From a virus (lineage: Duplodnaviria; Heunggongvirae; Uroviricota; Caudoviricetes), in IMG/VR virus record IMGVR_UViG_2706794662_000007: a stretch of DNA of 64,000 nt; one strand, written 5' to 3'. Under the pieces are notes generated by a model. It saw only the letters and a list, made by a program, of their open reading frames with translations. It was not told the origin of the DNA and did not search any database. The position numbers and the translations under genes were made by a program. Positions 952 through 53,067 of this stretch are shown here, piece after piece; positions within the stretch are counted from its first letter, which is position 1, and each line of letters opens with the position of its first letter.

Positions 952-1066
952 AGATCCCTCTAAAACACACAGAGCGCGTCCATGCGCTCTAAAACAACTT
1001 GTTTACTGCATATGCTAACCAACTTGTTTTCTGGGGTGTTTAATTAGGTCTGGGCATGTCTTACTA

Positions 1067-1147: not shown

Positions 1148-1414
1148 TTACATCACCAGTAACTTCGCTTTGGCTCGACCTAAAGTGGTTAACCCAAGAG
1201 TCCGGCGGTGATAGCGATTGTCACTGCGTTGGCGCGTATGTCCTTTCTCCACCAGCCCCTTTTTTATCAGAGCGCGAATTGAGAACTGGATGCTTTGCTT
1301 GGTTGTCTTGTACGGCAAAACTTCAAGCAATTCGTCCAGATCAAGTAGATGACCTCGCTCATAACCGAGATTGAGCGTTTTGATGATGTCCTTTTGTTTG
1401 TCGGTTAACGTCAT
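1148..1414 (-). CDS. small winged-helix-like DNA-binding protein (hypothetical)
   Basis: 88 aa ORF, basic, HTH-like segment KQSIQFSIRALIKKGLVEKG; last gene of the leftward operon starting at 4568. Confidence 0.4.
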   Translation of the reverse strand: MTLTDKQKDIIKTLNLGYERGHLLDLDELLEVLPYKTTKQSIQFSIRALIKKGLVEKGHTRQRSDNRYHRRTLGLTTLGRAKAKLLVM

Positions 1415-3205: not shown

Positions 3206-3870
3206 GCAGCCATCTCCCCGGAAGAGATTTTCTCCGCATATGCCACAAATGCGTCTACCCCGCTTTCTCCCGTCATTTCTTCCATGTGGGCAAGCAAATC
3301 ACCAACAACAATGGCAGAGCCAGCAGGAAGCGTTTTAAAGCCCAATACGTCGACAACACGTACTTCTTCCGCTGCAACTTCACGACTGATCTCGGTGTGT
3401 TCATCCTTCTGTCGTTTAGTTTCTTCGCCAAGATCGATAACTAGCGAGTCGGTGTCCATTTCTTCTGTCATACTGCCAACGAGAACATTCAACTCACGCT
3501 CTTCGAAGCCGAAAACCTCGATATCGTCCAGAACAAGCGACTCAAGCTCTTTCTGTAGCTTAATTGCATCGTAATCAATGCTGGCAAGTCGGTTATCTTC
3601 AAGGCGCTTCGCACGAACCTCGTCATCACTGAGATCATCGCGAACAATAACCGGTACACGCTCAAGTCCAGCAAAAATTGCAGCCTCACGACGGCCGTGG
3701 CCAGTAATAATTACGTCGTTCTTATCGACCGTAATTGGCTGGTCAAATCCGCGCTTTTTAATGGCTGCGGCCAGATCTCTGATCTGCTGTTCATCATGCT
3801 TTTTGGCATTCATCTCATAGGGAATAAGATCTGCCGGGTCGCGATATACGATTTCAAACTTTTTGGTCAT
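3202..3870 (-). CDS. ParB N-terminal domain (ParB/Srx-like nuclease fold) protein
   Basis: ParB-NTD motif ITGHGRREAA; start moved to internal ATG (M12 of track ORF) that overlaps upstream stop as TAATG with GGAG ribosome-binding site. Confidence 0.65.
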   Translation of the reverse strand: MTKKFEIVYRDPADLIPYEMNAKKHDEQQIRDLAAAIKKRGFDQPITVDKNDVIITGHGRREAAIFAGLERVPVIVRDDLSDDEVRAKRLEDNRLASIDYDAIKLQKELESLVLDDIEVFGFEERELNVLVGSMTEEMDTDSLVIDLGEETKRQKDEHTEISREVAAEEVRVVDVLGFKTLPAGSAIVVGDLLAHMEEMTGESGVDAFVAYAEKISSGEMAA

Positions 3871-4568
3871 TACATACGCTCCTTGTAGTAGTCGACCAGC
3901 CACACCAGAGCCTCACCAGCGTTCTCCATTTCATTACCGGTGTTAATAGCCTGCTCTTTGATGATGTTTTTTATGGTTTCTGCAACACGATCTGACGCAT
4001 CGAAAGTTACTTTGAAGCGCATGGTCTGATGTTCCGCCCCCACACGTTCGGTTTTCTCTCGTTTGTCGGTATCGACAGGCTCATCACTACCACGAGACAA
4101 CGCCTCCAGTGCTTCAAGGTCGATTGCCGCCTCTTTTGCTAAAACCATCGAGATTTCGTCGTCATACGGGGCGATTTCAGACAGTTGATAGTCAAGTTCT
4201 GACTGAATTTCTTCAATGAAGCGTTGCAATGCGATTTGGTCGTCTTCACCGTATCGCTCGTTGTCCACCAGTGACATCTGTTTAGCTACGACATCGCTAA
4301 TTTTGCCCACAGAAAGCACTGGAACCGTTGAAATTCCTTGCTCAATAGCGGCACGCCAGCGATGTTCGCCGCCGAGGATTTCAAAAAATCCATCTTCAAG
4401 TTCACGAGCCAAAATTGGCTTAAAAAAGCCCAATTTTTCGATAGAACCTTTCAGTTTTTCGAAATTCTGCGCACCAACCGAATTGGTGTTCCAGGTATTC
4501 GGGCGAAGGTTGGCAACATCAACCTGCAAAATCGTGATTTTTACGTCCATTTTATTGCTACAATCCAC
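3870..4568 (-). CDS. ParB N-terminal domain protein (paralog of neighbour)
   Basis: ParB-NTD motif ILGGEHRWRAA; first gene of leftward operon; motif B upstream at 4567-4589. Confidence 0.65.
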   Translation of the reverse strand: MDCSNKMDVKITILQVDVANLRPNTWNTNSVGAQNFEKLKGSIEKLGFFKPILARELEDGFFEILGGEHRWRAAIEQGISTVPVLSVGKISDVVAKQMSLVDNERYGEDDQIALQRFIEEIQSELDYQLSEIAPYDDEISMVLAKEAAIDLEALEALSRGSDEPVDTDKREKTERVGAEHQTMRFKVTFDASDRVAETIKNIIKEQAINTGNEMENAGEALVWLVDYYKERM

Positions 4569-6194: not shown

Positions 6195-6473
6195 ATGAGC
6201 GAAAAGAAAACAACTTATTGTCAGGTGGCATTGTCCGATAAGGCCAATGACAAACTTGGAAAGTTTCAAATGAAACTAAAAGAAAAAAACATCAAAATGT
6301 CTAAGGCTGAAGTTATCAATACCATTCTGGAGACGATGACGATGGCTGAATTTGACAAAGTTTCATCTGCCGTTGGAGTCTCTGCTAAGGCTCGTGAGAA
6401 AATCATGCGCATCTATGAGAACTCTAATATGACAAAGGAAGATTTAGAGCAAATTCTAAGCAAACTGCCGTAA
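6195..6473 (+). CDS. hypothetical protein
   Basis: 92 aa ORF 3 nt after helicase stop; followed by hairpin terminator. Confidence 0.45.
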   Translation: MSEKKTTYCQVALSDKANDKLGKFQMKLKEKNIKMSKAEVINTILETMTMAEFDKVSSAVGVSAKAREKIMRIYENSNMTKEDLEQILSKLP

Positions 6474-6654: not shown

Positions 6655-7248
6655 ATGAAACGTTCGTTACTTCTTGCTTGTATATACCTCTCGTCATTTT
6701 CCGCCAATGCGTTGTCAGATATCGTCTCCGACATGCAAAAAACGTACAGCATGTATACTTCTGAAGACGTACTAAAATACGAATCACGAGGTCTGATTCA
6801 ACCAGTCTGGTTCAGATTCTCAGATAACGCAGAAGAAACAATACTTAATGCAGGAAAAGAAAGATTACGGTTGCAAATTAACGGAACCGCTGTACCAGAA
6901 AACGTTAATGTAAGCTCTGACGAAGCCATGAAGCCATCTGGAATTGTTTTGGAAGTTCAAGACGGCACACTTTACTGTGATGAAATGGCTACAACAGGTT
7001 GCCAAGTAAACATTAGGGTTGGCAATGAAGAGCCTATCGTTACTTACGCCAAGGCTGAAGGGAATACAAGTGGAAAGGTATTGTTTATCGATGAAAATAC
7101 CTCAAAACGTATCGTTCGTGACATACAGAAAACAGCGAACTCTAAATCCGTCGATAAAAAAATCTATGTTGAGGTTCCCTTCTTTGTCGTTGGTAACAAA
7201 GAATTTAAATTTGGGTTGCTGAAAACACCTCTAAGAGTATCAGAATGA
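6655..7248 (+). CDS. secreted protein with cleavable signal peptide (hypothetical)
   Basis: N-terminus MKRSLLLACIYLSSFSANA; in AT-rich island; stop overlaps next start (ATGA). Confidence 0.5.
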   Translation: MKRSLLLACIYLSSFSANALSDIVSDMQKTYSMYTSEDVLKYESRGLIQPVWFRFSDNAEETILNAGKERLRLQINGTAVPENVNVSSDEAMKPSGIVLEVQDGTLYCDEMATTGCQVNIRVGNEEPIVTYAKAEGNTSGKVLFIDENTSKRIVRDIQKTANSKSVDKKIYVEVPFFVVGNKEFKFGLLKTPLRVSE

Positions 7249-7766
7249 GAACATTGGACATCACCTACGGCATACCGGCTGAAGTATGGCCGCGAGACTA
7301 CGAACATGCTGAACGTACCTTGCTCTTCTGGCGGAGTGCAAAATTTCCTGTAAGAGTCACTCTCGAAGACGGCCAAGTGTTTTGCATGTATGTCTACGGG
7401 CTATTGAGCGCAAGAAATAAGCTGAACCTCACACCAGATCCGCTTAGCAACACAAATCGTATAAGGCTCCCTCTTGAGCGCATTAGCACAATTGAGTCGG
7501 GCATAGAAGAGGTTGACACTTCATTCACAGGTCGACTAACGCTAAACAATGAACAGATGGTTAATCAGCCATCACGTCGTGACTTTTTTAAGATATGTCG
7601 TCAGGCTTACCAAAACGGCAAATCTATAAGGGTCTACATGGCAGACGGTCGCGAAATTGAGGGAACGTCAGATGGCGTTGACGCCTGTCTAGTCACACTT
7701 AAGTTGGAAGACGGTAGAAAAATACTTATTTTCTTCGATTGGGTTGAACGAATCCTTCCGTTTTAA
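7245..7766 (+). CDS. hypothetical cytoplasmic protein coupled to secreted protein
   Basis: 173 aa ORF overlapping upstream stop. Confidence 0.5.
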   Translation: MRTLDITYGIPAEVWPRDYEHAERTLLFWRSAKFPVRVTLEDGQVFCMYVYGLLSARNKLNLTPDPLSNTNRIRLPLERISTIESGIEEVDTSFTGRLTLNNEQMVNQPSRRDFFKICRQAYQNGKSIRVYMADGREIEGTSDGVDACLVTLKLEDGRKILIFFDWVERILPF

Positions 7767-8063: not shown

Positions 8064-8714
8064 ATGGCTAACATTATCATTTCTAAAAAGTCCATCATTG
8101 AAGCTGCATCTATTGTATCCGACGAACTGCGCGAAAAAGCAGATCTGGCAACTCAAACATATAACGAACATTATAAAAATGGTACGCACACTAAAGCAGA
8201 CAAAGCAAATATGCAAGCTGCGACCACTAAACTTGCTTACTTCATCAACAACGTCGTAAACGCTGTAGAAGACGAAAAATTATGCTCTGTTTTCTACTAT
8301 GCGATTAAAGCAAGCAAACAAGCGCCAGAAGTATTTTTTCGTGACGCTATGACTAATAGTTATTCACTGGAAAAACTGGTTTATCTGGTTAAATCAATTA
8401 AAGCTGGAAAATGTGTTTATTCCGTCGCTGATATGTCTGGATCTCGTGTATTCGCTTTAATCGATATGATTAACGACGAGATCGACACGTTCACGAATGG
8501 CGCTGTTTTCGATTTAATGAATGAAGCCAAAAAAGCGTGTGAAATTAAATTGGACGCTGGCTATACTCAAGCTAACCAGCTAATCAATCTTTGCGAACGT
8601 CTCGGACTTGTTGAGAAAGTCAAAGGAATGGGAAGCGCCAAAGCTGGTACACAGCAATATCGCTTTATCAAGAATGATTTCTACAATTATCTAGCTGACG
8701 CTTTCAAAGCGTAA
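8064..8714 (+). CDS. hypothetical protein (AT-rich island)
   Basis: 216 aa ORF, low GC codon usage, AAGGA ribosome-binding site. Confidence 0.5.
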   Translation: MANIIISKKSIIEAASIVSDELREKADLATQTYNEHYKNGTHTKADKANMQAATTKLAYFINNVVNAVEDEKLCSVFYYAIKASKQAPEVFFRDAMTNSYSLEKLVYLVKSIKAGKCVYSVADMSGSRVFALIDMINDEIDTFTNGAVFDLMNEAKKACEIKLDAGYTQANQLINLCERLGLVEKVKGMGSAKAGTQQYRFIKNDFYNYLADAFKA

Positions 8715-9247: not shown

Positions 9248-9579
9248 GTTTCCAATACTCCCACCATAACGCGCCAATGATGGCGCGTTTTTTATTGTCT
9301 TTGACTCACTCCAACAACATAAAAATAAGCGCCAAAATAACGCCATAGACGCGCTTTTATATCCTTGCCAGTACATACCCATTACTTAACACATTAACGC
9401 GCTTAAAACGCGTTATATTGCGCTATAGCGCATAGTTAATCATTGGCTTTTAGTCTTGCTATGTGATCCGCGTTTATTTGTCGGCGCGGATCGGCATTTT
9501 GTTTTGTTCCGTATCCGCTCGCGTATTATGTGCGCGTGATTTTTCACATAATCACACCACTTAATCACGTATGCGATTA

Positions 9580-9843
9580 NNNNNNNNNNNNNNNNNNNNN
9601 NNNNNNNNNNNNNNNNNNNNNNNNNNNNNNNNNNNNNNNNNNNNNNNNNNNNNNNNNNNNNNNNNNNNNNNNNNNNNNNNNNNNNNNNNNNNNNNNNNNN
9701 NNNNNNNNNNNNNNNNNNNNNNNNNNNNNNNNNNNNNNNNNNNNNNNNNNNNNNNNNNNNNNNNNNNNNNNNNNNNNNNNNNNNNNNNNNNNNNNNNNNN
9801 NNNNNNNNNNNNNNNNNNNNNNNNNNNNNNNNNNNNNNNNNNN
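9580..9843. other. N-run (masked or unresolved sequence)
   Basis: 264 consecutive n. Confidence 1.
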
Positions 9844-10324
9844 ACACGCCATCAAGGATGTGGATGCGGTTGCTTGCGTATACATTCAGCATAAAGTTAG
9901 CGCAAAACAGTTTCCATGTATCAACGCCAGCGGTATACGTAATGTTTTTGCATTTAATTGCATTGTTGGCGATCCGCATCCCCTGCGATACTGCTTCATC
10001 GTCGGAAAATTTGAACGACGATTGAGTTTTAATCCAGACAGAAATCTGCGTAGCGAACTCAATCAGCTTGGACTGGCAGAATCGCCCGGAGCGCACCGGA
10101 AAGACGAACGTTCCGAATCCAGAATTTACCACATACGCTTTCTCAAATACCCGCGAGTAACGACGATTGCCAATGATGTCGCGTGCAATAATGCATTTTT
10201 CTTGTGCTGACAGTTCTACCGTCTCATTGTCGCGCCATGCACCAAGTACTCGTTTTTCAATGTCAGAGAACGTTACAGCGATATTGCCATGTGCGGGTGC
10301 GTTTACAGTAGCGATAAAATTCAT
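9844..10324 (-). CDS. hypothetical protein, 3' end lost in N-run
   Basis: ORF starts MNFIATVNAPAHG at 10324; motif A at 10343-10360 upstream; true stop unknown. Confidence 0.4.
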
Positions 10325-10674
10325 GATTAATTCCTTATCGTAAATAACAAATTGTTTTCTTGTTGGCGTTAATTATCGTTGTACGAATAAGGCGTCAAAG
10401 TGGAAAGTTGCGGTAGCCGGACGGGAACAGGTGGGTTTGTCGGTTGCCTGGAGGTAAGAGGTTGGTGTTTTTAGCCTGCGGGAAACAGGATGGTCATTTA
10501 AGGCCACCAGCAGTGGTGGCCTTAATAATTATCGACCGATTACGCTAAGGATCTTTTCCTCAACTGATTTGTTGTTGCGACTAAACTGCCTTGCGTATCT
10601 GATGACAGAAGAGGCGTTTTGCTTTCTGACTATCTCGGCTCTTTCCTTCAGGCGTTTCTTGAAATCGCCCATAT

Positions 10675-11049
10675 TTACCACCAGGCGCAGAAGGTCAGTC
10701 TGTTATTGTGAAAGTCGTGGTTCTTAATCAGCTCTTCCACAAGTTTTTTCAACTCCCCCACGTCATGCCAGTACCCTTCATCGTACTCCTGACTGCCGAA
10801 GAAAAAACCTTCACAGGTAGGTAAGTACTCTTCGCAGTTACTTTCGTTCATGTGCATCAAATGAGCTTTCAGAGCACAAATGTCATTCATCGTTAATTCT
10901 AAAAGCTCACAATTTTTGACTTCACCTACGTTGCGTTCCATCCACCCAAAGAGAGCATTGAACTTACGGAAGTAAGCAACCTTCTTTCTGGATGCATCGT
11001 TATTCAGATCGTTTTTTGGTTGCGTCTCAATGTAGATATCAAGTCCCAT
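10675..11049 (-). CDS. hypothetical protein
   Basis: 124 aa ORF; motif A at 11107-11124 upstream. Confidence 0.45.
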   Translation of the reverse strand: MGLDIYIETQPKNDLNNDASRKKVAYFRKFNALFGWMERNVGEVKNCELLELTMNDICALKAHLMHMNESNCEEYLPTCEGFFFGSQEYDEGYWHDVGELKKLVEELIKNHDFHNNRLTFCAWW

Positions 11050-11126
11050 GATGGTTTCCTTATCAAGTTGCTTTCAGTGAAAGCATTTTCACAAATCAGA
11101 TAAGGCAGAAAACAAATTGTTATCGG

Positions 11127-12000: not shown

Positions 12001-12154
12001 CACAACTCCGTAAACAACTTGTTTTCTCAATGGCGTAAATAATACCAGTAAGAAAACGGCTACAAAGCATATTGATCAGGCGCATGAGCGATATGCAGGT
12101 TCTTCCCTGCGGCTACAGATGAAGTTAAGCCAGCAATGCTGGCTTTGGTTGGGC

Positions 12155-12484: not shown

Positions 12485-12622
12485 AAAGCAATCCTTAAAC
12501 ATGTTGTTTTCTGAATTACGTAAACAATACCAGTAAGAAAACGGCCACAAAGTATATCGTTACGGTGCTGCGCTGCCCCGAGGTTAATAGCGACAAAAGC
12601 CACCGTGCTGGTGGCCTCACTC

Positions 12623-12841: not shown

Positions 12842-14412
12842 CTCTTCATCCTCACTTCGTTTCTATAACGTCTAAATATGCTGTTTACTTGTTGGTGTTA
12901 TTATCGCAATAAGATAAAGGCGAAAAAGGATTTTATGTCGGGAAAGCCAGGCTGGGCAGTGAATATCCGGGAACGACACGAGAGCCAGTATTTACGATAT
13001 TCTGCTCTACGCGCGCCGCGGGGCTGGTGGGTAGAATAATCCTCTCCCCGAAAACCTACTGAAATCGATTGTGACCCGCTGGCTGTCTGGCACAATTACG
13101 CTGTATCTGGCATTCAGAGGGAATCCAGCGGTAAGCAAGTCAGCCTGCACGTGAGCGCCTCTCTTCTTCCCGCACATTACAGGTGGGTAGCTGCAACTCT
13201 CTCTCTCTCGCTATACCGGTACGCCGCCGTTCCAGAACCGGCATCGAGCCTTTTCCCGAAATCCACACAGGCAACTCGACCGTTTCCCTGAAAATCCCCA
13301 GCCGTTCCCCCGAAGGCAACCCAGCCGTTTCTGTAGCTGGATGCAACCTTTTCCCTGTATGGACCGAAGGCTGACCGTAGGGGGTGTTACGGGGGATAAA
13401 ATCAGGAGTTGAATAAATACGAAAAAGGAGGCGACCCCCCTCCTTCCCTCTCCACTTATACATACCTGGCTTCTTCGCTATACATGTTGTGTTTTATCTG
13501 TCTCAACCTCTCTATAGGCGTTAATGCTCACTCCTTCCAGAATGTTCTATACGGCGACTATTTCTGTTGGTGAATTGGGTGTGTTGTTTTCTCTGTCGGT
13601 GTATGTGGTTTCGTTAGTTTTGCGGTGGTTCTTCTATGGGGGTGTTCTCGTCGTTTTGGTGATTGTTCTTCTCCGTGTATGGAGTAATGGCAGGTGGGCG
13701 ATTGCTTTCGTTATTGTGTTTGAGTTGTTTGTCTGGAGTGTGTGAAGGCTTTTGTAGTTATTCGTGTATTGGGTAATGGCGTTTCCCGTGATTGTTATGT
13801 TTCGTGTCTTTTGGGATTGAGAGAAACCTTGCGGTTACAGGCTTCGTTAGGGTTTCAGCGGTTCAGGTGTTTCTTCGCTGTTTGGGTAATGGCGTGTCGT
13901 GGGTATCGCGCGTATGAATGTTTTCGGATTGCCTGTGAAAGTTAGGTTGGTTGTCCGGTAGCCTGGGGAGAAGAGGTGGGTCTTTTCGGTAGCCTGCCAT
14001 AAAGAGGTTGGTTGTTTTGGGTAATGGCATATGTGTTATTTGGTTGTTTTGTTATGCCTGAAAATAAGTTGTTTATATGGTTGTGTAACGCAACGGGAGC
14101 GATTTTGAGCGTGTGTTTTTGTTGGTAGTGTGTTGAGTCGTCTGTGGTGAAATTTGGACGCTGTGGCGCTATCTGCTGCGTAGAATTACGGGTATAAGAA
14201 GTGATGTGTGATAACGTCAATTTTTTAGACCAAATCGGGAGAAAGCGTTGATGTTTCGTTGATCTGTTATTTAGTTGTTTTCTTATTGGTATAAACAACC
14301 ATAACCTATTGATATTTAATGATGTGATTGCTGGTATGGGAGGGTAGTAGTGGCGATCAACGGGTTCTTATAGAAAAGAATCAAATTGTGACCGCCATTA
14401 TCAACGGTTTGA

Positions 14413-14634: not shown

Positions 14635-14934
14635 TTACCATTGCCAGCACTCAAGCCCTTCAACGACCGGTGCGCCACAATCAAAATGTACAGAGTTAAA
14701 GCCTACATCAAGTACTTTCTGAATGTTCGCAATCGCACCCTCGGATATACCATATCGACGCAACTCATCTTTCCAGTCATCGTCCTGTAACCCGGCGTGG
14801 ACAATGCAACCGTACTCAATTTGTGAAACCCAATCCAGCTCATTGCTTGCGATCATGAATCGGCGAGCATCTTCCTCTGATGTATGAGATGAACTGATCA
14901 ATGCCACCTGGTAGGCTTGGGTAATGTTCAACAT
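14635..14934 (-). CDS. hypothetical protein
   Basis: 99 aa ORF; two motif A copies upstream (14947-14963, 14997-15014). Confidence 0.4.
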   Translation of the reverse strand: MLNITQAYQVALISSSHTSEEDARRFMIASNELDWVSQIEYGCIVHAGLQDDDWKDELRRYGISEGAIANIQKVLDVGFNSVHFDCGAPVVEGLECWQW

Positions 14935-15045
14935 TTCAACTACTCCAAAACAAGTTGTTTTCTTATGTGGCTTATTATCTCAATCAACAAAAGGTAGAAA
15001 ACAAATTGTTTTAGGGCTTGTGTAAATCAGGAGGGATTGTGTCTA

Positions 15046-15095: not shown

Positions 15096-17034
15096 TTACT
15101 TAACCTGGTGGCCAGGTTTAGCACCAGCATCCGGGCTTAACAGGAAGATATCTTTCCCGCCAGGACCGGCAGCCATCACCATGCCTTCAGAGATACCGAA
15201 GCGCATTTTACGTGGTGCCAGGTTAGCCACCATAATGGTGTGACGACCAATCAGTGCCTGTGGATCTGGATAAGCGGAACGGATGCCTGAGAAGACATTA
15301 CGCTTTTCACCACCGAGATCCAGCGTCAGGCGAAGCAGTTTGTCAGAACCTTCGACAAACTCCGCGTTTTCAATCAGCGCCACACGCAGGTCAACTTTGG
15401 CGAAGTCGTCAAAGGTGATGGTTTCCTGAATCGGTTCGTCAGCCAGTGGGCCAGTTACCGGTGCAGCTGTGGCTTTCACTTCTTCTTTGGATGCTTCCAC
15501 CAGTGCTTCCACCTGTTTCATATCGATACGGTTATACAGTGCCTTGAACGGATTCACTTTATGGCCCAGAAGCGGTTGCTGGATACCATCCCAGGTCAGT
15601 TCTGTATTCAGGAATGCTTCTGCACGTTCAGTCAGTTTCGGCAGTACCGGTTTCAGGTACGTCATCAGCACGCGGAACAGGTTAATGCCCATAGAGCAAA
15701 TCGCCTGCAGATCTGCATCGCGACCTTCCTGCTTCGCCACCACCCACGGAGCCTGTTCATCGACATAGCGATTAGCCAGGTCAGCCAATGCCATGATTTC
15801 ACGGATAGCTTTACCAAATTCGCGGCTTTCCCATGCTTCGCCAATCACTTCAGCGGCATCAGTAAAGGTTTTGTACAGTTGCGGGTCAGCCAGTTCGCTT
15901 GTCAGCACGCCGTCAAAACGCTTGTTGATAAAGCCTGCATTACGGGAGGCCAGGTTAACCACTTTGTTCACGATATCGGCATTCACGCGCTGAACGAAAT
16001 CTTCCAGGTTGAGATCGATATCATCAATGCGCGAAGAGAGTTTCGCAGTGTAGTAGTAACGCAGGCTGTCAGCGTCAAAATGATTCAGCCAGGTGCTGGC
16101 TTTAATAAAGGTGCCGCGAGACTTGGACATCTTCGCGCCGTTCACCGTCACATAGCCGTGAACAAACAGGTTGGTCGGCTTGCGGAAGTTGCTGCCTTCC
16201 AGCATGGCAGGCCAGAACAGACTGTGGAAGTAAACGATATCTTTGCCGATGAAGTGGTACAGCTCGGCGGTGGAGTCTTTCTTCCAGTATTCGTCGAAGC
16301 TTACGCTGTCGCCGCGCTTGTCGCACAGATTCTTGAAAGAACCCATGTAGCCAATCGGCGCGTCCAGCCAGACGTAGAAATATTTGCCCGGCGCGTTCGN
16401 NNNNNNNNNNNNNNNNNNNNNNNNNNNNNNNNNNNNNNNNNNNNNNNNNNNNNNNNNNNNNNNNNNNNNNNNNNNNNNNNNNNNNNNNNNNNNNNNNNNN
16501 NNNNNNNNNNNNNNNNNNNNNNNNNNNNNNNNNNNNNNNNNNNNNNNNNNNNNNNNNNNNNNNNNNNNNNNNNNNNNNNNNNNNNNNNNNNNNNNNNNNN
16601 NNNNNNNNNNNNNNNNNNNNNNNNNNNNNNNNNNNNNNNNNNNNNNNNNNNNNNNNNNNNNNNNNNNNNNNNNNNNNNNNNNNNNNNNNNNNNNNNNNNN
16701 NNNNNNNNNNNNNNNNNNNNNNNNNNNNCTCTTCGCTGTGCGTCGAGTGATAGTTGTCATAGCTGATGTTAAAGCCTGCGAAATCAGTCTGATGTTCCTG
16801 ACTCATTTCGCCAATCATCTGTTCCGGTGTGATACCAAGCTGCTGTGCTTTCAGCATGATTGGCGTACCGTGGGCATCGTCGGCACAGATGAAATTAACC
16901 TCGTGGCCGCGCATTCGCTGGTAACGAACCCAGACATCAGCCTGGATGTGCTCCAGCATATGGCCGAGGTGGATTGAGCCGTTAGCGTACGGCAGCGCGC
17001 ACGTCACCAGAATTTTCTTCGCGACTTGGGTCAT
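15096..17034 (-). CDS. metG: methionyl-tRNA synthetase (interrupted by N-run 16400-16728)
   Basis: Start [29 protein letters not shown] (HIGH-type motif) and C-terminus ...[24 protein letters not shown] match E. coli MetG as I recall it; the two flanking ORF fragments are in different frames because of the N-run. Confidence 0.95.
16400..16728. other. N-run inside metG
   Basis: 329 n. Confidence 1.
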
Positions 17035-18329: not shown

Positions 18330-18719
18330 CTACATCACAGGACAATCATCAAACTCGCCACTTCTTGCGTCGTTGATAATGTGAGTGATCACACCAAACA
18401 CGGCATTGCTGCCCGTGCATCCATCGTCATCCTTTGGCAATGCTTCCTTCTTACCGGTTCTTAAATCCTCCAGATGCTGACGTGGAGACTTCCGGTATCT
18501 TTTTACGCGATATTCCCCATCCAGAGCGCATACAAGCAGAGAACCATCAACCGGGGTAAGTGAGGAATCAACCACCAGCAATGCACCCTGTAATATTCCC
18601 TCACGATGATGACTATCAGCTGCTCTCATGAAGTAGGTCGCTGAAGGATGTCTAATTATCTGCTGATCAAGAGAAATACGGCTCTCAGCATAATCCGCCG
18701 CAGGAGAAGGGAAGCCCAT
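18330..18719 (-). CDS. UmuD'-like S24 peptidase family protein
   Basis: GFPSPAADYAE...HPSATYF...DS...VKRYRK...VFGVITHIIN aligns with the UmuD C-terminal domain and lacks the N-terminal arm, like processed UmuD'; motif A upstream at 18839-18856. Confidence 0.7.
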   Translation of the reverse strand: MGFPSPAADYAESRISLDQQIIRHPSATYFMRAADSHHREGILQGALLVVDSSLTPVDGSLLVCALDGEYRVKRYRKSPRQHLEDLRTGKKEALPKDDDGCTGSNAVFGVITHIINDARSGEFDDCPVM

Positions 18720-18904
18720 AGCGTTTTGCCCTCAATACTGTTCATTTACACAGTATACATGAAAGAAGCTCACTCAGTGCAACTGATCGGTACATAGCAC
18801 CAGACAAAGGAACGTTATTTTCTCGAACAAGAAAAGGTAGAAAACAAATTGTTTAAGGCCACAACTAGTGGCCTTAATGGAGAAGGGATGCTTATTGGCT
18901 ATGG

Positions 18905-19423
18905 CTAAAAATCAAANNNNNNNNNNNNNNNNNNNNNNNNNNNNNNNNNNNNNNNNNNNNNNNNNNNNNNNNNNNNNNNNNNNNNNNNNNNNNNNNNNNN
19001 NNNNNNNNNNNNNNNNNNNNNNNNNNNNNNNNNNNNNNNNNNNNNNNNNNNNNNNNNNNNNNNNNNNNNNNNNNNNNNNNNNNNNNNNNNNNNNNNNNNN
19101 NNNNNNNNNNNNNNNNNNNNNNNNNNNNNNNNNNNNNNNNNNNNNNNNNNNNNNNNNNNNNNNNNNNNNTTTAAAGGAAGATAGGTTCCCCATAGTAGCT
19201 GTCTGCCGTGCGCTCGTGTGAAATACCGGGCCATCTTCGGATTGCTATGCTGCTTAGGAGCGCCTGGTCTGTATGTCTGATACCCGGCCAACATCCCATC
19301 AAACCTGTATAGAGGGAATGTAACAACTCCTTCGCTTTCATCGATCCACTGTCTATATGGATGCACATCATAGCGGTAGTTACGAGTTAGCAAATGAGCT
19401 TCCAGCTTTCCAAATTTAGTCAT
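18905..19423 (-). CDS. hypothetical protein (interrupted by N-run)
   Basis: Start set to MTKFGKLEAH with GAGGGA ribosome-binding site; C-terminal part and frame uncertain. Confidence 0.35.
   Translation of the reverse strand: MTKFGKLEAHLLTRNYRYDVHPYRQWIDESEGVVTFPLYRFDGMLAGYQTYRPGAPKQHSNPKMARYFTRAHGRQLLWGTYLPLXXXXXXXXXXXXXXXXXXXXXXXXXXXXXXXXXXXXXXXXXXXXXXXXXXXXXXXXXXXXXXXXXXXXXXXXXXXXXXXXXXXXXFDF
18917..19169. other. N-run
   Basis: 253 n. Confidence 1.
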
Positions 19424-21475: not shown

Positions 21476-21748
21476 TTAACCCGCAGTGCNNNNNNNNNNN
21501 NNNNNNNNNNNNNNNNNNNNNNNNNNNNNNNNNNNNNNNNNNNNNNNNNNNNNNNNNNNNNNNNNNNNNNNNNNNNNNNNNNNNNNNNNNNNNNNNNNNN
21601 NNNNNNNNNNNNNNNNNNNNNNNNNNNNNNNNNNNNNNNNNNNNNNNNNNNNNNNNNNNNNNNNNNNNNNNNNNNNNNNNNNNNNNNNNNNNNNNNNNNN
21701 NNNNNNNNNNNNNNNNNNNNNNNNNNNNNNNNNNNNNNNAGTTGCCAT
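21476..21748 (-). CDS. hypothetical protein (mostly masked by N-run)
   Basis: ATG at 21748 preceded by conserved junction GGAGAGTGATATG; body is n. Confidence 0.3.
   Translation of the reverse strand: MATXXXXXXXXXXXXXXXXXXXXXXXXXXXXXXXXXXXXXXXXXXXXXXXXXXXXXXXXXXXXXXXXXXXXXXXXXXXXXXXXXXXXTAG
21490..21739. other. N-run
   Basis: 250 n. Confidence 1.
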
Positions 21749-23123: not shown

Positions 23124-23364
23124 TGGCTGCCTCCTGCTTTTCTGCCTTCAACACCATGCGAGAACCATCATCCAGCTCCCACACTATCTCACCACCTTCA
23201 GCCATGACCAGTTGCCACACCAATTGAGCAGCCTCATTGGTAACATCACGACCTGGATCATTGCCAACGCGCATACGTCCACCTTCAACATCGCGCATTT
23301 TTGCCAGCATGATAGTTTTTGATAGCGGTGAAAAACCAAGCTGTAGTCGTGCTGAATTACTCAC
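23110..23364 (-). CDS. hypothetical protein
   Basis: 84 aa ORF. Confidence 0.4.
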   Translation of the reverse strand: MSNSARLQLGFSPLSKTIMLAKMRDVEGGRMRVGNDPGRDVTNEAAQLVWQLVMAEGGEIVWELDDGSRMVLKAEKQEAASERN

Positions 23365-23903
23365 TGGTTGCCTCCTTTGCGAAGCTGGGCAGCAAAGTCA
23401 ACTAACCACTCAGTCATTTCAACCTTCCCTACCAGGTCTGAACCAGGGTGCATACAGCAATCACTCTGCGCCGCTTTGAAATCCTTATACTCATATTCTT
23501 GGGCCACCAGATTTTTTGCAGCTTCTATAGCAGCATCCACCCCCTGCGCACGTACTTCAGCCAGAAAAGCATCGGTGGCTGGAGTCTCCGTTAATTCGCT
23601 AACCCAATTATCTCCGTGTTCCTCGGCACACATCGCATCGAATGCTCGCTCAGATTCTTTCAGGGCTGCATTCTCCGCCGCTAATGCGTCTCTCTGCGCC
23701 CGCAACTTCTCAATTTCGGCAGCCATGTAGTAACCAACCATAGCGAAGACGGCAAAAGAGTTGTCTGCCTCATCAGGCGACACTGAGGCCATTAGCAGAC
23801 CATCGTAATAATCGTGACTCCCATTGGTGATCGCCACCTCATAGGAGTCGTGGTTCTCACGCTTGTGAATGAGAACTACGGGGTTTTCGATTTTGTTACT
23901 CAT
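23361..23903 (-). CDS. hypothetical protein
   Basis: 180 aa ORF; conserved start context aaaaacacATG. Confidence 0.5.
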   Translation of the reverse strand: MSNKIENPVVLIHKRENHDSYEVAITNGSHDYYDGLLMASVSPDEADNSFAVFAMVGYYMAAEIEKLRAQRDALAAENAALKESERAFDAMCAEEHGDNWVSELTETPATDAFLAEVRAQGVDAAIEAAKNLVAQEYEYKDFKAAQSDCCMHPGSDLVGKVEMTEWLVDFAAQLRKGGNQ

Positions 23904-24041
23904 GTGTTTTTCTCTTCTTTGCTGTTACATAAGCACTACCAAGTGCTGGTTTATTTTCACAAATAAGAAAATGTAGAAAACAATTTATTTAAGGCCACAA
24001 CTTATGGCCTTTATTTATTCATGCCGAAGGATTTGTAGCGT

Positions 24042-25187: not shown

Positions 25188-26892
25188 TCATTTAACGCGT
25201 TTGAAAACGTATACGCTGACTGTGATCCCTGTGTCTTCAAACTCGTTGGTAAACGACTTCCCTCTGGCATAAACGTAATTATCCATCGTCATCCAGTCCA
25301 GTATTGGCGCNNNNNNNNNNNNNNNNNNNNNNNNNNNNNNNNNNNNNNNNNNNNNNNNNNNNNNNNNNNNNNNNNNNNNNNNNNNNNNNNNNNNNNNNNN
25401 NNNNNNNNNNNNNNNNNNNNNNNNNNNNNNNNNNNNNNNNNNNNNNNNNNNNNNNNNNNNNNNNNNNNNNNNNNNNNNNNNNNNNNNNNNNNNNNNNNNN
25501 NNNNNNNNNNNNNNNNNNNNNNNNNNNNNNNNNNNNNNNNNNNNNNNNNNNNNNNNNNNNNNNNNCCAGATCGGCGTTAATATAGGCCAGAAGATCCCCA
25601 CGTCCGGCTTGAGGCTCCAACAGCTTCTCACCAGGCTTCAATTCAGTGGCTCTGGCAACGTACTCAGCAATCAAGCGTGGGGTAGGGTAGAACTGGTGTG
25701 ATTTTGTATCCGGTATTAAACCGGTAGCCACAATCGTATTTAGCGTATGGCCGATCTCATACGGGAACTGCCAGTGCTTTTTCTCCTGCACGCCGCCAAT
25801 GAAGCTCAGTGTGCGCTCAAGCTCTTCCACCTGCGACTTCTGGAGAGCTGAATCAGAGAAGTACCATACGCCTTTGTCTTTGCTCAATCGCCCGTCACGA
25901 AGCGCAGTGCGAACCGGCACGGAGATCGTCTTCTGGATTAACCCGAACTGCTTTGGTGCCCGTGTTTTTGGCGCAGTTCGGCATGGCGCGGGGATTGCAG
26001 CAGGCATACTGTAAGCCAGCACCTCATTCAACTTCCAGGCCACGTCAGGATGTATTTCAAAGTGAACGTTGCCGTTCTTGAACATCTTCACGCGCATCAG
26101 ATTTCCATCGACGTTCATCCAGTCACCGGTCTGGCAGTCGTTTGCCCGATACGCAGCTGATAGCACCTCAGCAGTGCGGTTGATGGTAATAAATTCTTTG
26201 TGCGCGAAGAAATGAAGCAAGACACGCAGATCGTCGATGTAGTCCTCTTTGCGATAGTTCACGCTAACGCTGTCACGCCAGAAATCAGAAATGCAGTCAG
26301 CGATTATCAGACGCTCGCTGAAACCGTTTGTCTTATTTGTCTTGTGCGCAGGACTCAGCGCCTTAAACAAGCCATACACGCGCTCAGAGAGATATTTGTG
26401 CCTGTCATTCAGCAAATTAAGCATCGTTGGTATGACCGTTTCTGCTTTGAACTCCGGTACACCAACGAACTCTTTAACCTTCATCTGATAGCCGGTTCTG
26501 TCAGTTTTGATGACTTCCTGCTTGCCCTCGATAAATAGCTCACGCCACTCGTCGCGACGGGAAGCTGGCATGATCAGCAGAACGTTAGTCATATCCGTAA
26601 CCTTCCTCCAGTACTCGGCCCAAATATTCTGTTTCACCCATTCCAGATCGACGTTATCCAGCCAGACTCGATTCAAACGTGAGCGATCTTCATCTGGTCG
26701 GTGGTTTAGTCGAAGCAGGCGATTAATCATGTTGTGGCGTTCATCGCCATAAACGAAGTCGTGTACCTGATACATGAAGGAGATCTCTTTCTCGCACTCG
26801 GCCACAATTTCGTGGATGACGTTCATTTCCTGTCGATAGTCGATAGCAGTGTTTGAGCTGGCATCGCCCATGATGGAAAGGGCTGTATTCAT
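25188..26892 (-). CDS. putative N6-adenine DNA methyltransferase with large N-terminal extension (C-terminal part masked)
   Basis: FYPTPRLIAEYV followed by EPQAGRGDLLAYI (motif X then motif I, gamma-class order) just before the N-run; the catalytic (D/N)PPY region would lie in the masked part. Confidence 0.45.
25311..25565. other. N-run
   Basis: 255 n. Confidence 1.
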
Positions 26893-28521: not shown

Positions 28522-28660
28522 ATGTTTTCCTTAATGCTTAAACAAGTTGTTTTCTTATTGGCTTTATTGTGATGTGGCATAAAAGGGGAGCAAGCTAAAC
28601 GTAAAGGTGCAAACTCTCTATTTCGGTCAACGAAACACAATGGCCATTTGACCCTTGTCA

Positions 28661-28819
28661 TTAACACGTTGCTTTACGGACTAGCGGATAAGCGAAGTAG
28701 ATCGCCAGACCAATGAGGACGCCATCAGAAATGACAGACATCATCTTTCCCGTAAAATCCACCAACACCGCCATCACCAGAAGAGCAATGACGGTCACAA
28801 GCCGGAATCTCTCAAGCAT
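28661..28819 (-). CDS. small hydrophobic peptide (52 aa), coupled to TerB-like gene
   Basis: Manual translation MLERFRLVTVIALLVMAVLVDFTGKMMSVISDGVLIGLAIYFAYPLVRKATC; ATG overlaps upstream stop as TAATG; below ORF-track size cutoff. Confidence 0.35.
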   Translation of the reverse strand: MLERFRLVTVIALLVMAVLVDFTGKMMSVISDGVLIGLAIYFAYPLVRKATC

Positions 28820-29244: not shown

Positions 29245-29337
29245 GTGTTTTCCTTTTGTTATTGGTCAAAACAAGTTGTTTTCTAGTTAAATAAATTGCT
29301 TACGCAAAGACGGTCAATGCATATGCACTAACAACCG

Positions 29338-30051: not shown

Positions 30052-30175
30052 AAAGAGTTGCGGCTGGCAATCGCCAGCCGCCTTTCTCGTTCCATCCTGG
30101 AACTGTGTCTTACCGACACATTGTCATCCTGACGCCGATAAGATACATGATTTATAATGATAGGTAAACACTTAC

Positions 30176-39455: not shown

Positions 39456-39536
39456 GTGTTTTTCCTTTTGCTTTTTGATGTGTTTAAACAAGTTGTTATC
39501 CTATTTGTTTAAACAAGGCTTACAAATCAAAGAGAA

Positions 39537-53008: not shown

Positions 53009-53067
53009 AATTAACTTAACCTTTTAACAAATTGTTTTCTTGTGTGTGATAATAACGAGAATAAAAC

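What the first reader, a model, noticed from the sequence alone, without database searches (positions are those of the whole stretch)
14947..15014. Motif A: 13-bp palindrome AAACAA-N-TTGTTT upstream of at least 12 leftward genes
Copies (often extended as AGAAAACAAnTTGTTTTCT) lie 10-40 nt upstream of minus-strand start codons at about 991-1032, 10343, 11107, 12013, 12497, 14947, 14997, 18839, 23975, 28538, 29268, 39484 and 53013. Targets include terminase small subunit, nrdB, the UmuD'-like gene and many hypothetical genes. Perfect dyad symmetry and its position beside the ribosome-binding site suggest a shared operator for a dimeric regulator, defining a co-regulated gene set.
Basis: seen in the sequence. 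Interest (0 to 1): 0.6.

Follow-up and report, generated by a model that had tools for sequence, protein, structure and literature searches.

The report
Shared promoter operator of SSU5-like phage-plasmids
A 13-base palindrome (AAACAA-N-TTGTTT) sits at two fixed positions in about a dozen promoters of this roughly 108-kb phage-plasmid and its relatives (including S. Typhi pHCM2-type plasmids and Y. pestis pMT1), and it most likely is the binding site through which one still unidentified protein switches a whole block of phage genes off together.

Summary
The window has 7 exact and 15 one-mismatch copies of AAACAANTTGTTT, against 0.01 and 0.49 expected, all upstream of minus-strand genes. The window is an SSU5/pHCM2-type phage-plasmid of E. 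coli.

The motif is positioned relative to a conserved promoter module with an extended -10 (TGnGATAAT), not relative to the ribosome-binding site. It is centred either about 38 bp upstream (U) or about 13 bp downstream (D) of the inferred transcription start. When both are present they are always 51 bp apart, as at 14999/14948.

The same 13-mer at the same positions is kept in SSU5, pMT1 and relatives whose proteins are only about 26-57% identical. A Moellerella relative lacks it.

In a published transcriptome of a Cyrano lysogen, the genes behind the motif are silent, except the parA operon.

Variants change one arm only, predicted RNA hairpins are no better than shuffles, and U sites lie upstream of the -10. 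This makes it a DNA site.

The best reading is a dispersed operator for a symmetric repressor, comparable to the C1 operators of P1 or KorB/OB of RK2. I could not identify the binder. The top candidates are a ParG/omega-like partner of ParA (outside the window) and an FljA-family protein (7245-7766).

It is a new member of a known kind.

The parts
14999..15011 (-). Motif A, U-type site (AAACAATTTGTTT). Centre is about -38 of the promoter of gene 14635-14934.
   Evidence: Exact copy. Exactly 19 nt separate it from GATAAT at 14974-14979. The same U/D pair is conserved in Cyrano, SSU5 and IMG/VR relatives.
14974..14982 (-). Extended -10 element TGaGATAAT of the U+D promoter.
   Evidence: Sequence verified. 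The TGnGATAAT block is conserved across the promoter family (logos; TG present in 34 of 56 family promoters). The transcription start is inferred, not mapped.
14948..14960 (-). Motif A, D-type site (aagaAAACAACTTGTTT). Centre is about +13. It ends 13 nt before the ATG of gene 14635-14934.
   Evidence: Exact copy. It lies 13 nt downstream of GATAAT, and its centre is 51 bp from the U site.
1017..1029 (-). Motif A, D-type site 1 in the terS leader (AAACAAGTTGGTT, 1 mismatch).
   Evidence: Conserved in 26 of 30 orthologous variants.
992..1004 (-). Motif A, second site in the terS leader, 25 bp from site 1.
   Evidence: Exact copy. Orthologous alignment.
10345..10357 (-). Motif A, D-type site, 14 nt after GATAAT (10372-10377). 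Gene 9440-10324.
11110..11122 (-). Motif A, U-type site, 19 nt before TGtGAAAAT (hexamer 11085-11090). Gene 10675-11049.
12012..12024 (-). Motif A, D-type site, 14 nt after TGgTATTAT (hexamer 12039-12044). It ends 11 nt before the ATG.
12497..12509 (-). Motif A, D-type site (1 mismatch), 14 nt after TGgTATTGT (hexamer 12524-12529).
14062..14074 (-). Motif A copy (1 mismatch) of unclear class, in an A/C-rich stretch without a clear gene start.
   Evidence: The orthologous copy in SSU5 is exact (position 90740).
18842..18854 (-). Motif A, U-type site directly after a GC hairpin. It lies 19 nt before GAAAAT (18817-18822), upstream of the UmuD-like gene 18330-18719.
   Evidence: The hairpin at 18853-18877 was called terminator-like.
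23978..23990 (-). Motif A, U-type site (1 mismatch) after a GC hairpin. It lies 19 nt before TGtGAAAAT (hexamer 23953-23958). Eae-like operon, first gene 23361-23903.
28540..28552 (-). Motif A, D-type site, 13 nt after CACAAT (28566-28571). Gene 27952-28521.
29269..29281 (-). Motif A, leader-type site ending 24 nt before the TciA-like gene 28819-29244. There is no clear -10 at the canonical spacing.
39486..39498 (-). Motif A, leader-type site (1 mismatch) ending 30 nt before nrdB. No clear -10, so it may be an internal site between nrdA and nrdB.
   Evidence: The orthologous site in SSU5 has a different central base.
53025..53037 (-). Motif A, D-type site (1 mismatch), 11 nt after TATTAT (53049-53054).
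7245..7766 (+). FljA-family protein (173 aa). It is a candidate binder and the basis of the RNA-level rival.
   Evidence: Pfam PF03614, E=1e-80, full length, with weak Hfq/LSM hits. Absent from the motif-less Moellerella relative. Only 26% identical in PO552 p2, where the motif is unchanged.
1148..1414 (-). 88-aa winged-helix-like protein immediately upstream of the terS promoter. It is a weaker candidate binder.
   Evidence: Weak LexA_DNA_bind, Lrs14 and Sta1 hits. 74-88% conserved in relatives, but also present (61%) in the motif-less Moellerella element. Silent in the lysogen.

Best explanation
Motif A is a DNA operator. It is a 13-bp dyad, often extended to AGAAAACAAnTTGTTTTCT, that binds a symmetric, element-encoded protein and is built into a family of host-sigma70, extended -10 promoters that drive the leftward (lytic-direction) genes.

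The site sits in one of two stereotyped places. U sites are centred about -38 and overlap the -35 region. D sites are centred about +13, in the initially transcribed region. Both places lie inside the footprint of RNA polymerase, so an occupied site should block polymerase binding or promoter escape. Where both are present they are exactly 51 bp apart, about five helical turns, and the two bound units could cooperate across the -10.

The result would be one regulon of at least 13 promoters in this window, and about 18-20 in a whole genome, that is kept off together in the plasmid-prophage state.

Shown here: the enrichment, the fixed geometry, the deep conservation, and the silence of the downstream genes in a lysogen of a relative. 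Inferred: the transcription start sites, protein binding, the direction of regulation, and the identity of the binder.

The best candidate binder is the ParG/omega-like partner of the type Ib ParA, which is encoded outside the window. The second candidate is the FljA-family protein at 7245-7766.
For: Enrichment. 7 exact copies against 0.01 expected, and 15 at <=1 mismatch against 0.49 expected.

Geometry. All four U sites are followed by exactly 19 nt and then GATAAT or GAAAAT. Six of the seven D sites are preceded by a -10-like hexamer at 13-14 nt, and the seventh (53025) at 11 nt. In contrast, the distance to the ATG ranges from 11 to 122 nt. In 76 de-duplicated promoter contexts from the window and its relatives, the palindrome, a CCTTTTCT spacer block, TGnGATAAT and the AGA prefix are the conserved columns. 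U-D centre spacing is 51 bp in every lineage that has both sites.

Conservation. The sites are conserved at orthologous promoters (terS, parA, helicase, cobT, nrdB and the small early genes) in SSU5, pMT1, PO552 p2 and 62 IMG/VR relatives. The central N and the flanks vary, and which of the two terS sites stays intact turns over.

DNA rather than RNA. Variants are single-arm changes with no compensation. Predicted RNA folds of the leaders are no better than shuffles (z from -0.8 to +0.6) and do not even use the palindrome.

Expression. In the Cyrano lysogen, first genes behind the motif are at or near background (5.7-25, median 9.8). The genes on the opposite strand, which have no motif, are expressed (PMC9928086 table S1).

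Not a general promoter element. The Moellerella relative has comparable genes but no motif.

Precedents. P1 C1 binds 22 dispersed operators (PMC8546580). In RK2, KorB binds a 13-bp 6-N-6 palindrome placed directly upstream of the -35 (PMC11790492).
Against: - No binding protein is identified and no binding is shown.
- Transcription starts are inferred from a -10-like box only. The simple sigma70 scan, which requires a canonical -35 at 16-18 nt, does not call these promoters.
- The fixed 19-nt spacing of U sites is more typical of an activator site or a core promoter element than of a repressor site, which needs no exact register.
- Some promoters keep only the left half (AGAAAACAA) at the D position. 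A simple dimer-operator model does not explain this.
- The motif is unchanged in lineages whose proteins are only 26-57% identical. Phage repressor-operator pairs usually diversify, so this is unusual.
- The parA operon carries a D site yet is expressed in the lysogen (50-89 units).
- The transcriptome comes from a relative (about 96% identical in shared parts), not from this element.
Confidence: 0.55

Rival explanations
1. Dual-function or activating site. The protein bound at U (about -38, in promoters that lack a usable -35) recruits RNA polymerase in the manner of a class II activator. The same protein bound at D (+13) represses. This would give a temporal switch during lytic growth rather than lysogenic silencing.
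For: - The U-to-(-10) spacing is strictly 19 nt in all lineages, as expected for a stereospecific contact.
- U promoters have no TTGACA-like hexamer at 16-18 nt.
- Several well-conserved small DNA-binding candidates are silent in the lysogen, so they would act only during lytic growth: the wHTH protein at 1148-1414, CYRAN_37 and CYRAN_113.
Against: - A centre at -38 is about 3.5 bp off the usual class II position of -41.5 (general knowledge).
- The extended -10 should make these promoters active without help.
- U-only and D-only promoters do not separate into obviously late and early functions: terS carries D-type sites, while early-type genes in PO552 carry U sites.
- All classes are equally silent in the lysogen.
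Confidence: 0.15
2. RNA-level operator. The D copies are transcribed into the 5' leader next to the Shine-Dalgarno sequence. There they are bound by the FljA-family protein (7245-7766), which represses translation and destabilises the mRNAs, as FljA does on fliC mRNA in Salmonella.
For: - A full-length FljA-family protein with Sm/Hfq-like features is encoded in the window (PF03614, E=1e-80).
- D sites lie in the inferred leader, and several abut GGAG.
- The Salmonella fliC leader...AACATCAAGTTGTAATTGATAAGGAAAAGATC-ATG (primer in PMC3410353), contains CAAGTTGT, which is the core of the motif.
- The one relative without the motif also lacks the FljA-like gene.
- From my own recollection, because the papers could not be opened here: FljA binds the fliC 5' UTR (Yamamoto and Kutsukake 2006; Aldridge et al. 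2006).
Against: - The four U sites in the window, and most sites in PO552, lie upstream of the -10 and behind terminators, so these promoters do not transcribe them.
- The position is fixed to the -10, not to the start codon.
- There are no compensatory changes.
- The palindrome hairpin is not in the predicted minimum-energy fold, and leader energies equal those of shuffles.
- The FljA-like protein is only 26% identical in PO552 although the motif is unchanged.
- The fliC match is a single 8-mer, at roughly 0.003 chance by my own rough estimate.
- There is no Rfam hit.
Confidence: 0.1
3. Host-read promoter element. The palindrome is not an operator for an element-encoded protein. Instead it is read by host RNA polymerase (AAACAA as a proximal UP-like A-tract at -44 to -39, TTGTTT as a displaced -35) or by a conserved host DNA-binding protein.
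For: - The 13-mer is invariant across relatives with about 26-57% protein identity and across hosts from Escherichia to Yersinia. This is typical of elements read by conserved host machinery.
- The register to the -10 is fixed.
- The left arm falls where the proximal UP subsite lies (general knowledge).
Against: - The identical palindrome also occurs at +13, where polymerase has no such contact.
- C at -3 and G at +3 are conserved symmetrically, which UP elements do not require.
- The Moellerella element lacks the motif altogether, although its host polymerase should read the same promoter elements (general knowledge).
- I know of no enterobacterial regulator with this consensus. LexA, KorA/KorB, P1 C1 and omega patterns are not enriched.
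Confidence: 0.1

Closest known systems
Bacteriophage P1 C1 repressor and its dispersed operators
   Same: In a phage that lives as a plasmid prophage, one repressor site is scattered over the genome (22 operators in P1) at the promoters of many separate lytic operons (PMC8546580). Here there are about 18-20 sites per genome at separate promoters, and the genes are silent in the lysogen.
   Different: The P1 operator is a 17-bp asymmetric sequence (ATTGCTCTAATAAATTT). Nothing within 3 mismatches of it occurs in the window. Motif A is a perfect dyad with two stereotyped positions. I did not search systematically for a C1 homologue.
RK2/RP4 global regulators KorB (operator OB) and KorA (operator OA)
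   Same: OB is a 13-bp 6-N-6 palindrome (TTTAGCGGCTAAA) present at many plasmid promoters. In PkorA it lies directly upstream of the -35, like the U site. KorB is also the partition protein (PMC11790492). The parA promoter here carries motif A, and two ParB-family genes lie at 3202-4568.
   Different: The sequence is unrelated, and there are no enriched OB or OA matches. The ParB-like genes are silent in the lysogen (5 and 9.5 units). No long-range sites are evident, because all copies here are promoter-locked. There is no equivalent of OA over the -10.
Omega (pSM19035) and ParG (TP228) ribbon-helix-helix centromere-binding proteins acting as repressors
   Same: A small partner of a type Ib ParA, with a disordered basic N-terminal tail, that autoregulates the par operon and, in the case of omega, several other plasmid promoters (my own knowledge). 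CYRAN_29-type proteins have that layout, and their parA promoter carries motif A in every lineage examined.
   Different: Omega binds arrays of 7-bp heptads and ParG binds arrays of ACTC boxes. Here there is a single 13-bp dyad per site. The RHH fold of CYRAN_29 is only inferred: Pfam finds nothing, hhalign gives probability 0.1, the AF2 model has pLDDT 64, and Foldseek finds nothing. No binding has been tested.
Mycobacteriophage L5 gp71 'stoperators' (Cluster A immunity)
   Same: Many copies of a 13-bp repressor site are dispersed through the genome, some inside transcribed leaders, and silence lytic genes in the lysogen (my own knowledge; the Cluster A paper PMC6550527 appeared in the hit list but was not read).
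   Different: Stoperators are asymmetric and orientation-dependent and act on elongation. Motif A is symmetric and locked to the promoter.
FljA and the fliC 5' leader of Salmonella
   Same: An FljA-family protein is encoded in the window, and the target lies between the promoter and the Shine-Dalgarno sequence. The fliC leader shares CAAGTTGT with the motif.
   Different: FljA has one known target and acts on RNA. Motif A has about 20 copies, a third of which lie upstream of the -10.

Membership tests
Operator of a symmetric DNA-binding regulator (generic) | Sequence over-represented relative to base composition and confined to regulatory regions | tested here: met
   7 exact copies against 0.01 expected and 15 at <=1 mismatch against 0.49 expected. 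14 of 15 lie in gene-upstream regions of the minus strand; the copy at 14062 is unclassified.
Operator of a symmetric DNA-binding regulator (generic) | Both half-sites conserved by sequence rather than by pairing, and conserved at orthologous promoters while the flanks drift | tested here: met
   Logos. Single-arm variants only. Orthologous terS alignment of 30 variants. SSU5, pMT1 and PO552.
Operator of a symmetric DNA-binding regulator (generic) | A cognate protein binds the site and changes transcription | not testable with these tools
   Needs EMSA or footprinting, ChIP and reporter assays. Only candidates could be ranked.
Sigma70 extended -10 promoter | TGn immediately upstream of a TATAAT-like hexamer, with a transcription start 5-9 nt downstream | tested here: inconclusive
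   TGnGATAAT, TGnGAAAAT or TGnTATTAT is present at fixed spacing, and TG is present in 34 of 56 family promoters. No start site is mapped. The canonical -35/-10 scan does not call these promoters.
P1 C1 operator | 17-bp asymmetric consensus ATTGCTCTAATAAATTT | tested here: not met
   No match within 3 mismatches in the window. Consensus taken from PMC8546580.
KorB operator OB / KorA operator OA (IncP-1) | OB is TTTAGCSGCTAAA and OA is GTTTAGCTAAAC | tested here: not met
   Only isolated 2-mismatch hits, one locus for OB and two for OA, none at promoters carrying motif A. Only the 6-N-6 geometry and the position upstream of the -35 resemble OB.
LexA (SOS) box | CTGT-N8-ACAG | tested here: not met
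   Motif A does not fit the pattern. Separate CTGT-N8-ACAG matches lie at 11871 and 18738.
Ribbon-helix-helix centromere-binding repressor sites (omega/ParG type) | Arrays of short repeats bound by an RHH partner of a type Ib ParA | tested here: inconclusive
   A single dyad per site, not an array. The candidate protein has an invariant 'I.SRT.S.E.E' segment followed by helices at 48-60 and 70-84. No family or fold match was found.
Cis-regulatory RNA / 5'-leader hairpin | Stable structure, supported by compensatory changes or by a known family model | tested here: not met
   No Rfam family reaches its gathering score in the window. Leader folds give z from -0.8 to +0.6 and do not form the palindrome hairpin. 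There are no compensatory variants.
Intrinsic terminator | GC-rich stem followed directly by a U-tract at the end of a transcription unit | tested here: not met
   The palindrome itself is A/T-rich with a 1-nt centre. At 18842 and 23978 it merely follows a separate GC hairpin and supplies T-rich tail sequence.

The most novel reading that the evidence does not exclude
The palindrome is bound by the small ParG/omega-like partner of the element's type Ib ParA (the CYRAN_29 family, mis-annotated as a RelE/ParE toxin). In this reading the plasmid-partition protein doubles as the master silencer of the phage's lytic promoters, and the roughly 20 promoter-locked sites may together also serve as a dispersed centromere. 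The state of plasmid maintenance and the decision to stay a prophage would then be read out by one protein.

In favour:
- The parA operon is the only motif-bearing operon that is clearly on in the lysogen, as expected for the autoregulated gene of the repressor.
- The predicted DNA-contacting segment (I.SRT.S.E.E ... RSD..R.A) is invariant down to 27-35% overall identity.
- A motif-A site or a remnant of one sits at the parA promoter in every lineage looked at, including the Moellerella element, which has no other copy.

Not excluded, but not shown either.
Probability: 0.2. Interest if true: 0.8.

Novelty: new member of a known kind. Interest (0 to 1): 0.5.

Why it matters
SSU5/pHCM2-type phage-plasmids are common in clinical Enterobacteriaceae. 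Candidate proteins from this element matched about 800 plasmid records in PLSDB (Klebsiella, Escherichia, Enterobacter, Salmonella; the FljA-like query also matched 62 Yersinia records). Their lysis-lysogeny control is essentially uncharacterised: four literature searches found no description of this motif.

A single invariant 13-mer at fixed promoter positions gives three things:
1. A ready-made map of one regulon: DNA replication, nucleotide metabolism, partition, the head of the packaging operon, and many small early genes.
2. A bait for identifying the regulator.
3. A portable promoter-operator module.

If the binder turns out to be the partition protein, this would link plasmid segregation to prophage silencing.

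Tried and rejected
1. RNA hairpin or known RNA family. There is no Rfam hit. The folds are no better than shuffles and do not use the palindrome.

2. Terminator. Rejected. Only the neighbouring GC hairpins are terminator-like.

3. P1 C1, KorA/KorB, omega and LexA consensus sequences. None is enriched.

4. CYRAN_45, the lysogen-expressed XRE-type 'putative repressor', as the binder. Rejected. It is absent from SSU5, which keeps the motif, and its own control region carries GGTAAG/CTTACC repeats instead.

5. CYRAN_117 (window 6195-6473), which is RHH-like and expressed in the lysogen. Unlikely. Its predicted DNA-facing strand residues differ between Cyrano, SSU5 and L101 while the motif does not change, and the motif-like sequence inside its start is not conserved.

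6. ParB-like proteins (3202-4568), by analogy with KorB. They are silent in the lysogen and are present in the motif-less Moellerella element.

7. FljA-like protein outside SSU5-type elements, to test co-occurrence. The phage and plasmid collections hold it almost only in SSU5-type elements, so there was no independent test.

8. CYRAN_29 family outside these elements. None was found.

9. The primary FljA papers (PMC1347349, PMC156219) and the P1 genome paper (PMC523184) are not held in the library.

10. pMT1 lacks CYRAN_29 but keeps the motif. I judged this uninformative because pMT1 is a recent, partly deleted derivative.
Full report
WHAT THE WINDOW IS. The window is 99.5% identical over the tested 10 kb to 'Escherichia phage CMS-2020a' (CP054387.1, 109 kb). 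It is about 96% identical to PhiR41_1 and to Cyrano, the pLF82 phage-plasmid of E. coli LF82. These are SSU5/pHCM2-type phage-plasmids. I fetched the whole CMS-2020a, Cyrano and most of SSU5 and mapped the window onto them. The window's minus strand is the main gene strand. Seven stretches of the window are masked with N.

CHECK OF THE OBSERVATION. AAACAANTTGTTT occurs 7 times exactly (0.01 expected), 15 times at <=1 mismatch (0.49 expected, maximum 3 in 100 shuffles) and 21 times at <=2 mismatches (6.2 expected). One more copy lies at 14062. The whole CMS-2020a genome has 18 copies at <=1 mismatch, 15 of them in the part covered by the window. The finding's coordinates hold two exact copies, 14948-14960 and 14999-15011.

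ANATOMY. I viewed the copies in the direction of the genes. They fall into two classes.
- D sites (1017, 10345, 12012, 12497, 14948, 28540, 53025) read a-AGA-AAACAAnTTGTTT. A -10-like hexamer (GATAAT, TATTAT, TATTGT, CACAAT) lies 13-14 nt upstream of most of them (11 nt at 53025), usually preceded by TGn.
- U sites (11110, 14999, 18842, 23978) read AAACAAnTTGTTT-TCT. Exactly 19 nt follow (consensus tCTaCCTTTTcTt...), then TGnGATAAT or TGnGAAAAT.
- Sites 29269 and 39486 resemble D sites but have no clear -10. Site 992 is a second site 25 bp downstream of 1017 in the terS leader. Site 14062 is unclassified.

With the hexamer placed at -12 to -7, U is centred at about -38 and D at about +13. At 14999/14948 both flank one -10, with centres 51 bp apart. 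The distance from the palindrome to the start codon is not constant: 11-41 nt for D-type copies and 60-122 nt for U-type copies. The motif is therefore positioned relative to the promoter, not to the ribosome-binding site. The transcription starts are my inference. The tool's simple sigma70 scan, which needs a canonical -35 at 16-18 nt, does not call these promoters.

CONSERVATION. The motif sits at the same orthologous promoters in Cyrano (terS x2, parA, helicase, cobT, nrdB, tciA-like and the small early genes). It does so in SSU5 too, at about 81% nucleotide identity (identity from PMC9928086; 20 copies in 100 kb). There the central N and the flanks differ but the arms do not.

A scan of IMG/VR for AGAAAACAANTTGTTT returned many single chance hits. 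It also returned SSU5-like contigs with 6-10 copies per 6-14 kb whose proteins are only about 45-57% identical to Cyrano by tblastx. Sixty-two loci around the FljA-like gene of relatives carry 2-12 copies each where they span most of the 20 kb; a few short fragments have 0-2.

From the window, the rest of CMS-2020a, SSU5 and the IMG/VR loci I collected 76 non-redundant promoter contexts: 45 D-only, 21 U-only and 10 U+D, a few of them chance contexts from unrelated contigs. Their logos show the palindrome (both arms equally strong), a CC just upstream of U, the CCTTTTCT spacer block, TGnGATAAT and the AAGA prefix of D as the conserved columns. The hexamer filter was imposed, but the other blocks were not. 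U-D spacing is 51 bp in every lineage with both sites.

An alignment of 30 distinct terS leaders shows invariant arms, a variable centre, and turnover of which of the two sites stays intact. Y. pestis pMT1 keeps the motif at its remaining SSU5-type promoters. Klebsiella sp. PO552 p2, a deep lineage, has 17 copies in 90 kb, mostly U-type. A Moellerella wisconsensis relative (pW18-2-b) has the same gene layout but no motif A and no other enriched 6-bp-arm palindrome.

DNA OR RNA. Four observations point to DNA:
1. Variants change one arm only (TAACAA, AAATAA, TTGGTT, TTATTT, TTGTTA, ATGTTT), with no compensating change in the other arm.
2. The 1-nt centre cannot form a loop.
3. Predicted folds of five leaders have energies equal to shuffles (z from -0.8 to +0.6) and do not form the palindrome hairpin. 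Only the terS leader scores better (z -1.9), because of a separate GC hairpin.
4. U sites lie behind terminators and upstream of the -10.

No Rfam family matches anywhere in the window. The element therefore works as duplex DNA.

EXPRESSION. Misson et al. (PMC9928086) give RNA-seq values for every Cyrano gene in an LF82 lysogen. The median is 9.8 units.
- First genes behind motif A are at or near background: terS 7.1, helicase 21, cobT 7.8, CYRAN_58 5.7, nrdB 12.9, tciA-like 7.0, CYRAN_87 7.1, eae-like 6.3, CYRAN_101 7.5, 105 12.8, 106 12.2, 108 5.7, 110 6.7, 111 25.5.
- The exception is the parA operon (parA 50, CYRAN_29 89, CYRAN_30 55).
- Genes on the other strand, which lack the motif, are on: UvsW-like helicase 46, CYRAN_117 114, MinD-like 92, RepA 133 and the toxin-antitoxin pairs.

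Promoters with a good extended -10 should fire with host polymerase alone, so something holds them off. Beyond the core promoter elements and the CCTTTTCT spacer block, the palindrome is the shared element, and it is the only one with dyad symmetry. Both of its positions lie inside the polymerase footprint. This is the basis for preferring repression. It is an inference.

WHO BINDS IT. This is not settled.
- CYRAN_45 (XRE-type, expressed in the lysogen) is absent from SSU5, and its own control region has GGTAAG/CTTACC repeats. It looks like a local switch.
- CYRAN_117 (window 6195-6473) looks like an RHH protein and is expressed, but its predicted DNA-facing residues vary while the motif does not.
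- The two ParB-family proteins (3202-4568), the wHTH protein (1148-1414), CYRAN_37 and CYRAN_113 (8064-8714) are silent in the lysogen. All but CYRAN_37 are also present in the motif-less Moellerella element.
- The FljA-family protein (7245-7766; PF03614, E=1e-80, weak Hfq/LSM hits) is absent from Moellerella. The Salmonella fliC leader shares CAAGTTGT with the motif. However, the protein is only 26% identical in PO552, where the motif is unchanged, it is expressed at only about twice background in the lysogen, and it is expected to bind RNA.
- CYRAN_29, encoded just after the type Ib parA and outside the window, has a disordered basic tail, then I-K-S-R-T-M-S-L-E-D-E and two helices. The segment 'I.SRT.S.E.E' and 'RSD..R.A' are invariant down to 27-35% identity. 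The protein is expressed in the lysogen. Its own promoter carries motif A in every lineage examined, and a 2-mismatch remnant is the only motif-like sequence left in Moellerella. An RHH fold is only inferred. Pfam and PDB give nothing. NCBIfam gives a sub-threshold hit to the aCcr1 family (E=2e-4), which I recall to be ribbon-helix-helix proteins. hhalign places the strand on that of ParG, but at probability 0.1. AF2 gives pLDDT 64, with helices at 48-60 and 70-84. Foldseek finds nothing.

I rank CYRAN_29 first, the FljA-like protein second and the wHTH protein third. None is demonstrated.

COMPARISON WITH KNOWN SYSTEMS.
- In function this resembles P1, where C1 binds 22 dispersed operators (PMC8546580).
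- It also resembles RK2, where KorB binds a 13-bp 6-N-6 palindrome that in PkorA lies directly upstream of the -35 (PMC11790492).
- From my own knowledge it resembles omega of pSM19035 and the stoperators of mycobacteriophage L5.
- It is not a member of the P1 C1, KorA/KorB or LexA operator families by sequence.
- What is particular here is the strict two-position architecture, the 51-bp pairing, and the invariance of the 13-mer over lineages with 26-57% protein identity.
- Four literature searches found no description of the motif. That is absence from the library I could search, not proof of novelty.

VERDICT. It is a new member of a known kind (dispersed operators of a plasmid or prophage global regulator). 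Interest is 0.5. It would rise considerably if the binder is the partition protein.

Noticed in passing
window 4569, 11608, 25170/25174, 32379, 46628, 54172, 57713, 63296: A second dispersed palindrome, 'motif B' (TAAGTA-NN-TACTTA). It has 9 hits at <=1 mismatch against 0.10 expected, all between genes and upstream of other leftward genes, plus the divergent ParB-like/helicase region. Cyrano has 14 copies, SSU5 20 and pMT1 9. Copies also lie inside the structural-gene block, and 6 survive in the Moellerella relative that lacks motif A. It probably marks a second regulon, possibly middle or late.
   Followed up: partly
window 962-990 (minus strand), between the second motif-A site and the terS start: A GC hairpin, AGAGCGC-atggac-GCGCTCT, followed by GTGTGTTTT, ends about 10 nt before the terS start codon (949-951). 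In 30 orthologous variants the stem is kept through paired changes (GAGCGC/GCGCTC, GAGCAC/GTGCTC, CGGCGC/GCGCCG, GGTGCA/TGCACC). This is a conserved leader structure. It may be a terminator that makes the packaging/late operon depend on antitermination.
   Followed up: partly
window 7245-7766 (+): A full-length FljA-family protein ('repressor of phase-1 flagellin', PF03614, E=1e-80) is encoded by a phage-plasmid and conserved in SSU5, pMT1 and deep lineages. It could act on host flagellin mRNA rather than on the element itself.
   Followed up: partly
window 18738-18753, upstream of the UmuD-like gene 18330-18719: A LexA-box-like CTGT-N8-ACAG (CTGTGTAAATGAACAG on the gene strand) lies just before the start of the UmuD-like gene, downstream of its U-type motif-A promoter. 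The Cyrano homologue is strongly expressed in the lysogen (148 units).
   Followed up: no
Cyrano 29975-30334 (outside the window); homologues P0002-P0021: The gene after parA, annotated 'RelE/ParE putative toxin' in Cyrano, has the layout of a ParG/omega-type centromere-binding partner of a type Ib ParA: a disordered basic tail, a short strand and two helices. No toxin family matches it. The family was found only in SSU5-type elements.
   Followed up: partly
window 18853-18877 and about 23991-24012 (minus strand): A near-identical GC hairpin, aaggccac-NNNN-tgtggcctt, lies immediately upstream of two U-type sites and recurs in SSU5 (85602, 87625). The hairpin plus the T-rich arm of the palindrome is called terminator-like. 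It looks like a compact terminator-operator-promoter unit.
   Followed up: partly
window about 30,700-30,900: An alternating purine-pyrimidine stretch (cacgcacgcgtgtgcgcacgcgcg) lies next to the counterpart of CYRAN_81, a 44-codon ORF that is 12-fold above background in the lysogen. This could be a small RNA or another non-coding feature.
   Followed up: no
NZ_CP093251.1 (loci L193-L195): Moellerella wisconsensis plasmid pW18-2-b is an SSU5-type phage-plasmid in the Morganellaceae. It lacks motif A and also lacks the FljA-like, CYRAN_37 and CYRAN_62 genes. It is a useful natural comparator.
   Followed up: yes
window 13,000-14,300: An A/C-rich stretch with no convincing ORF holds the unclassified motif-A copy at 14062. 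The gene content here differs from Cyrano.
   Followed up: no
window 9580-9843, 16400-16728, 18917-19169, 21490-21739, 25311-25565, 44324-44586, 55055-55312: Seven runs of N (250-330 nt each) mask parts of genes. Any motif copy inside them is invisible.
   Followed up: no
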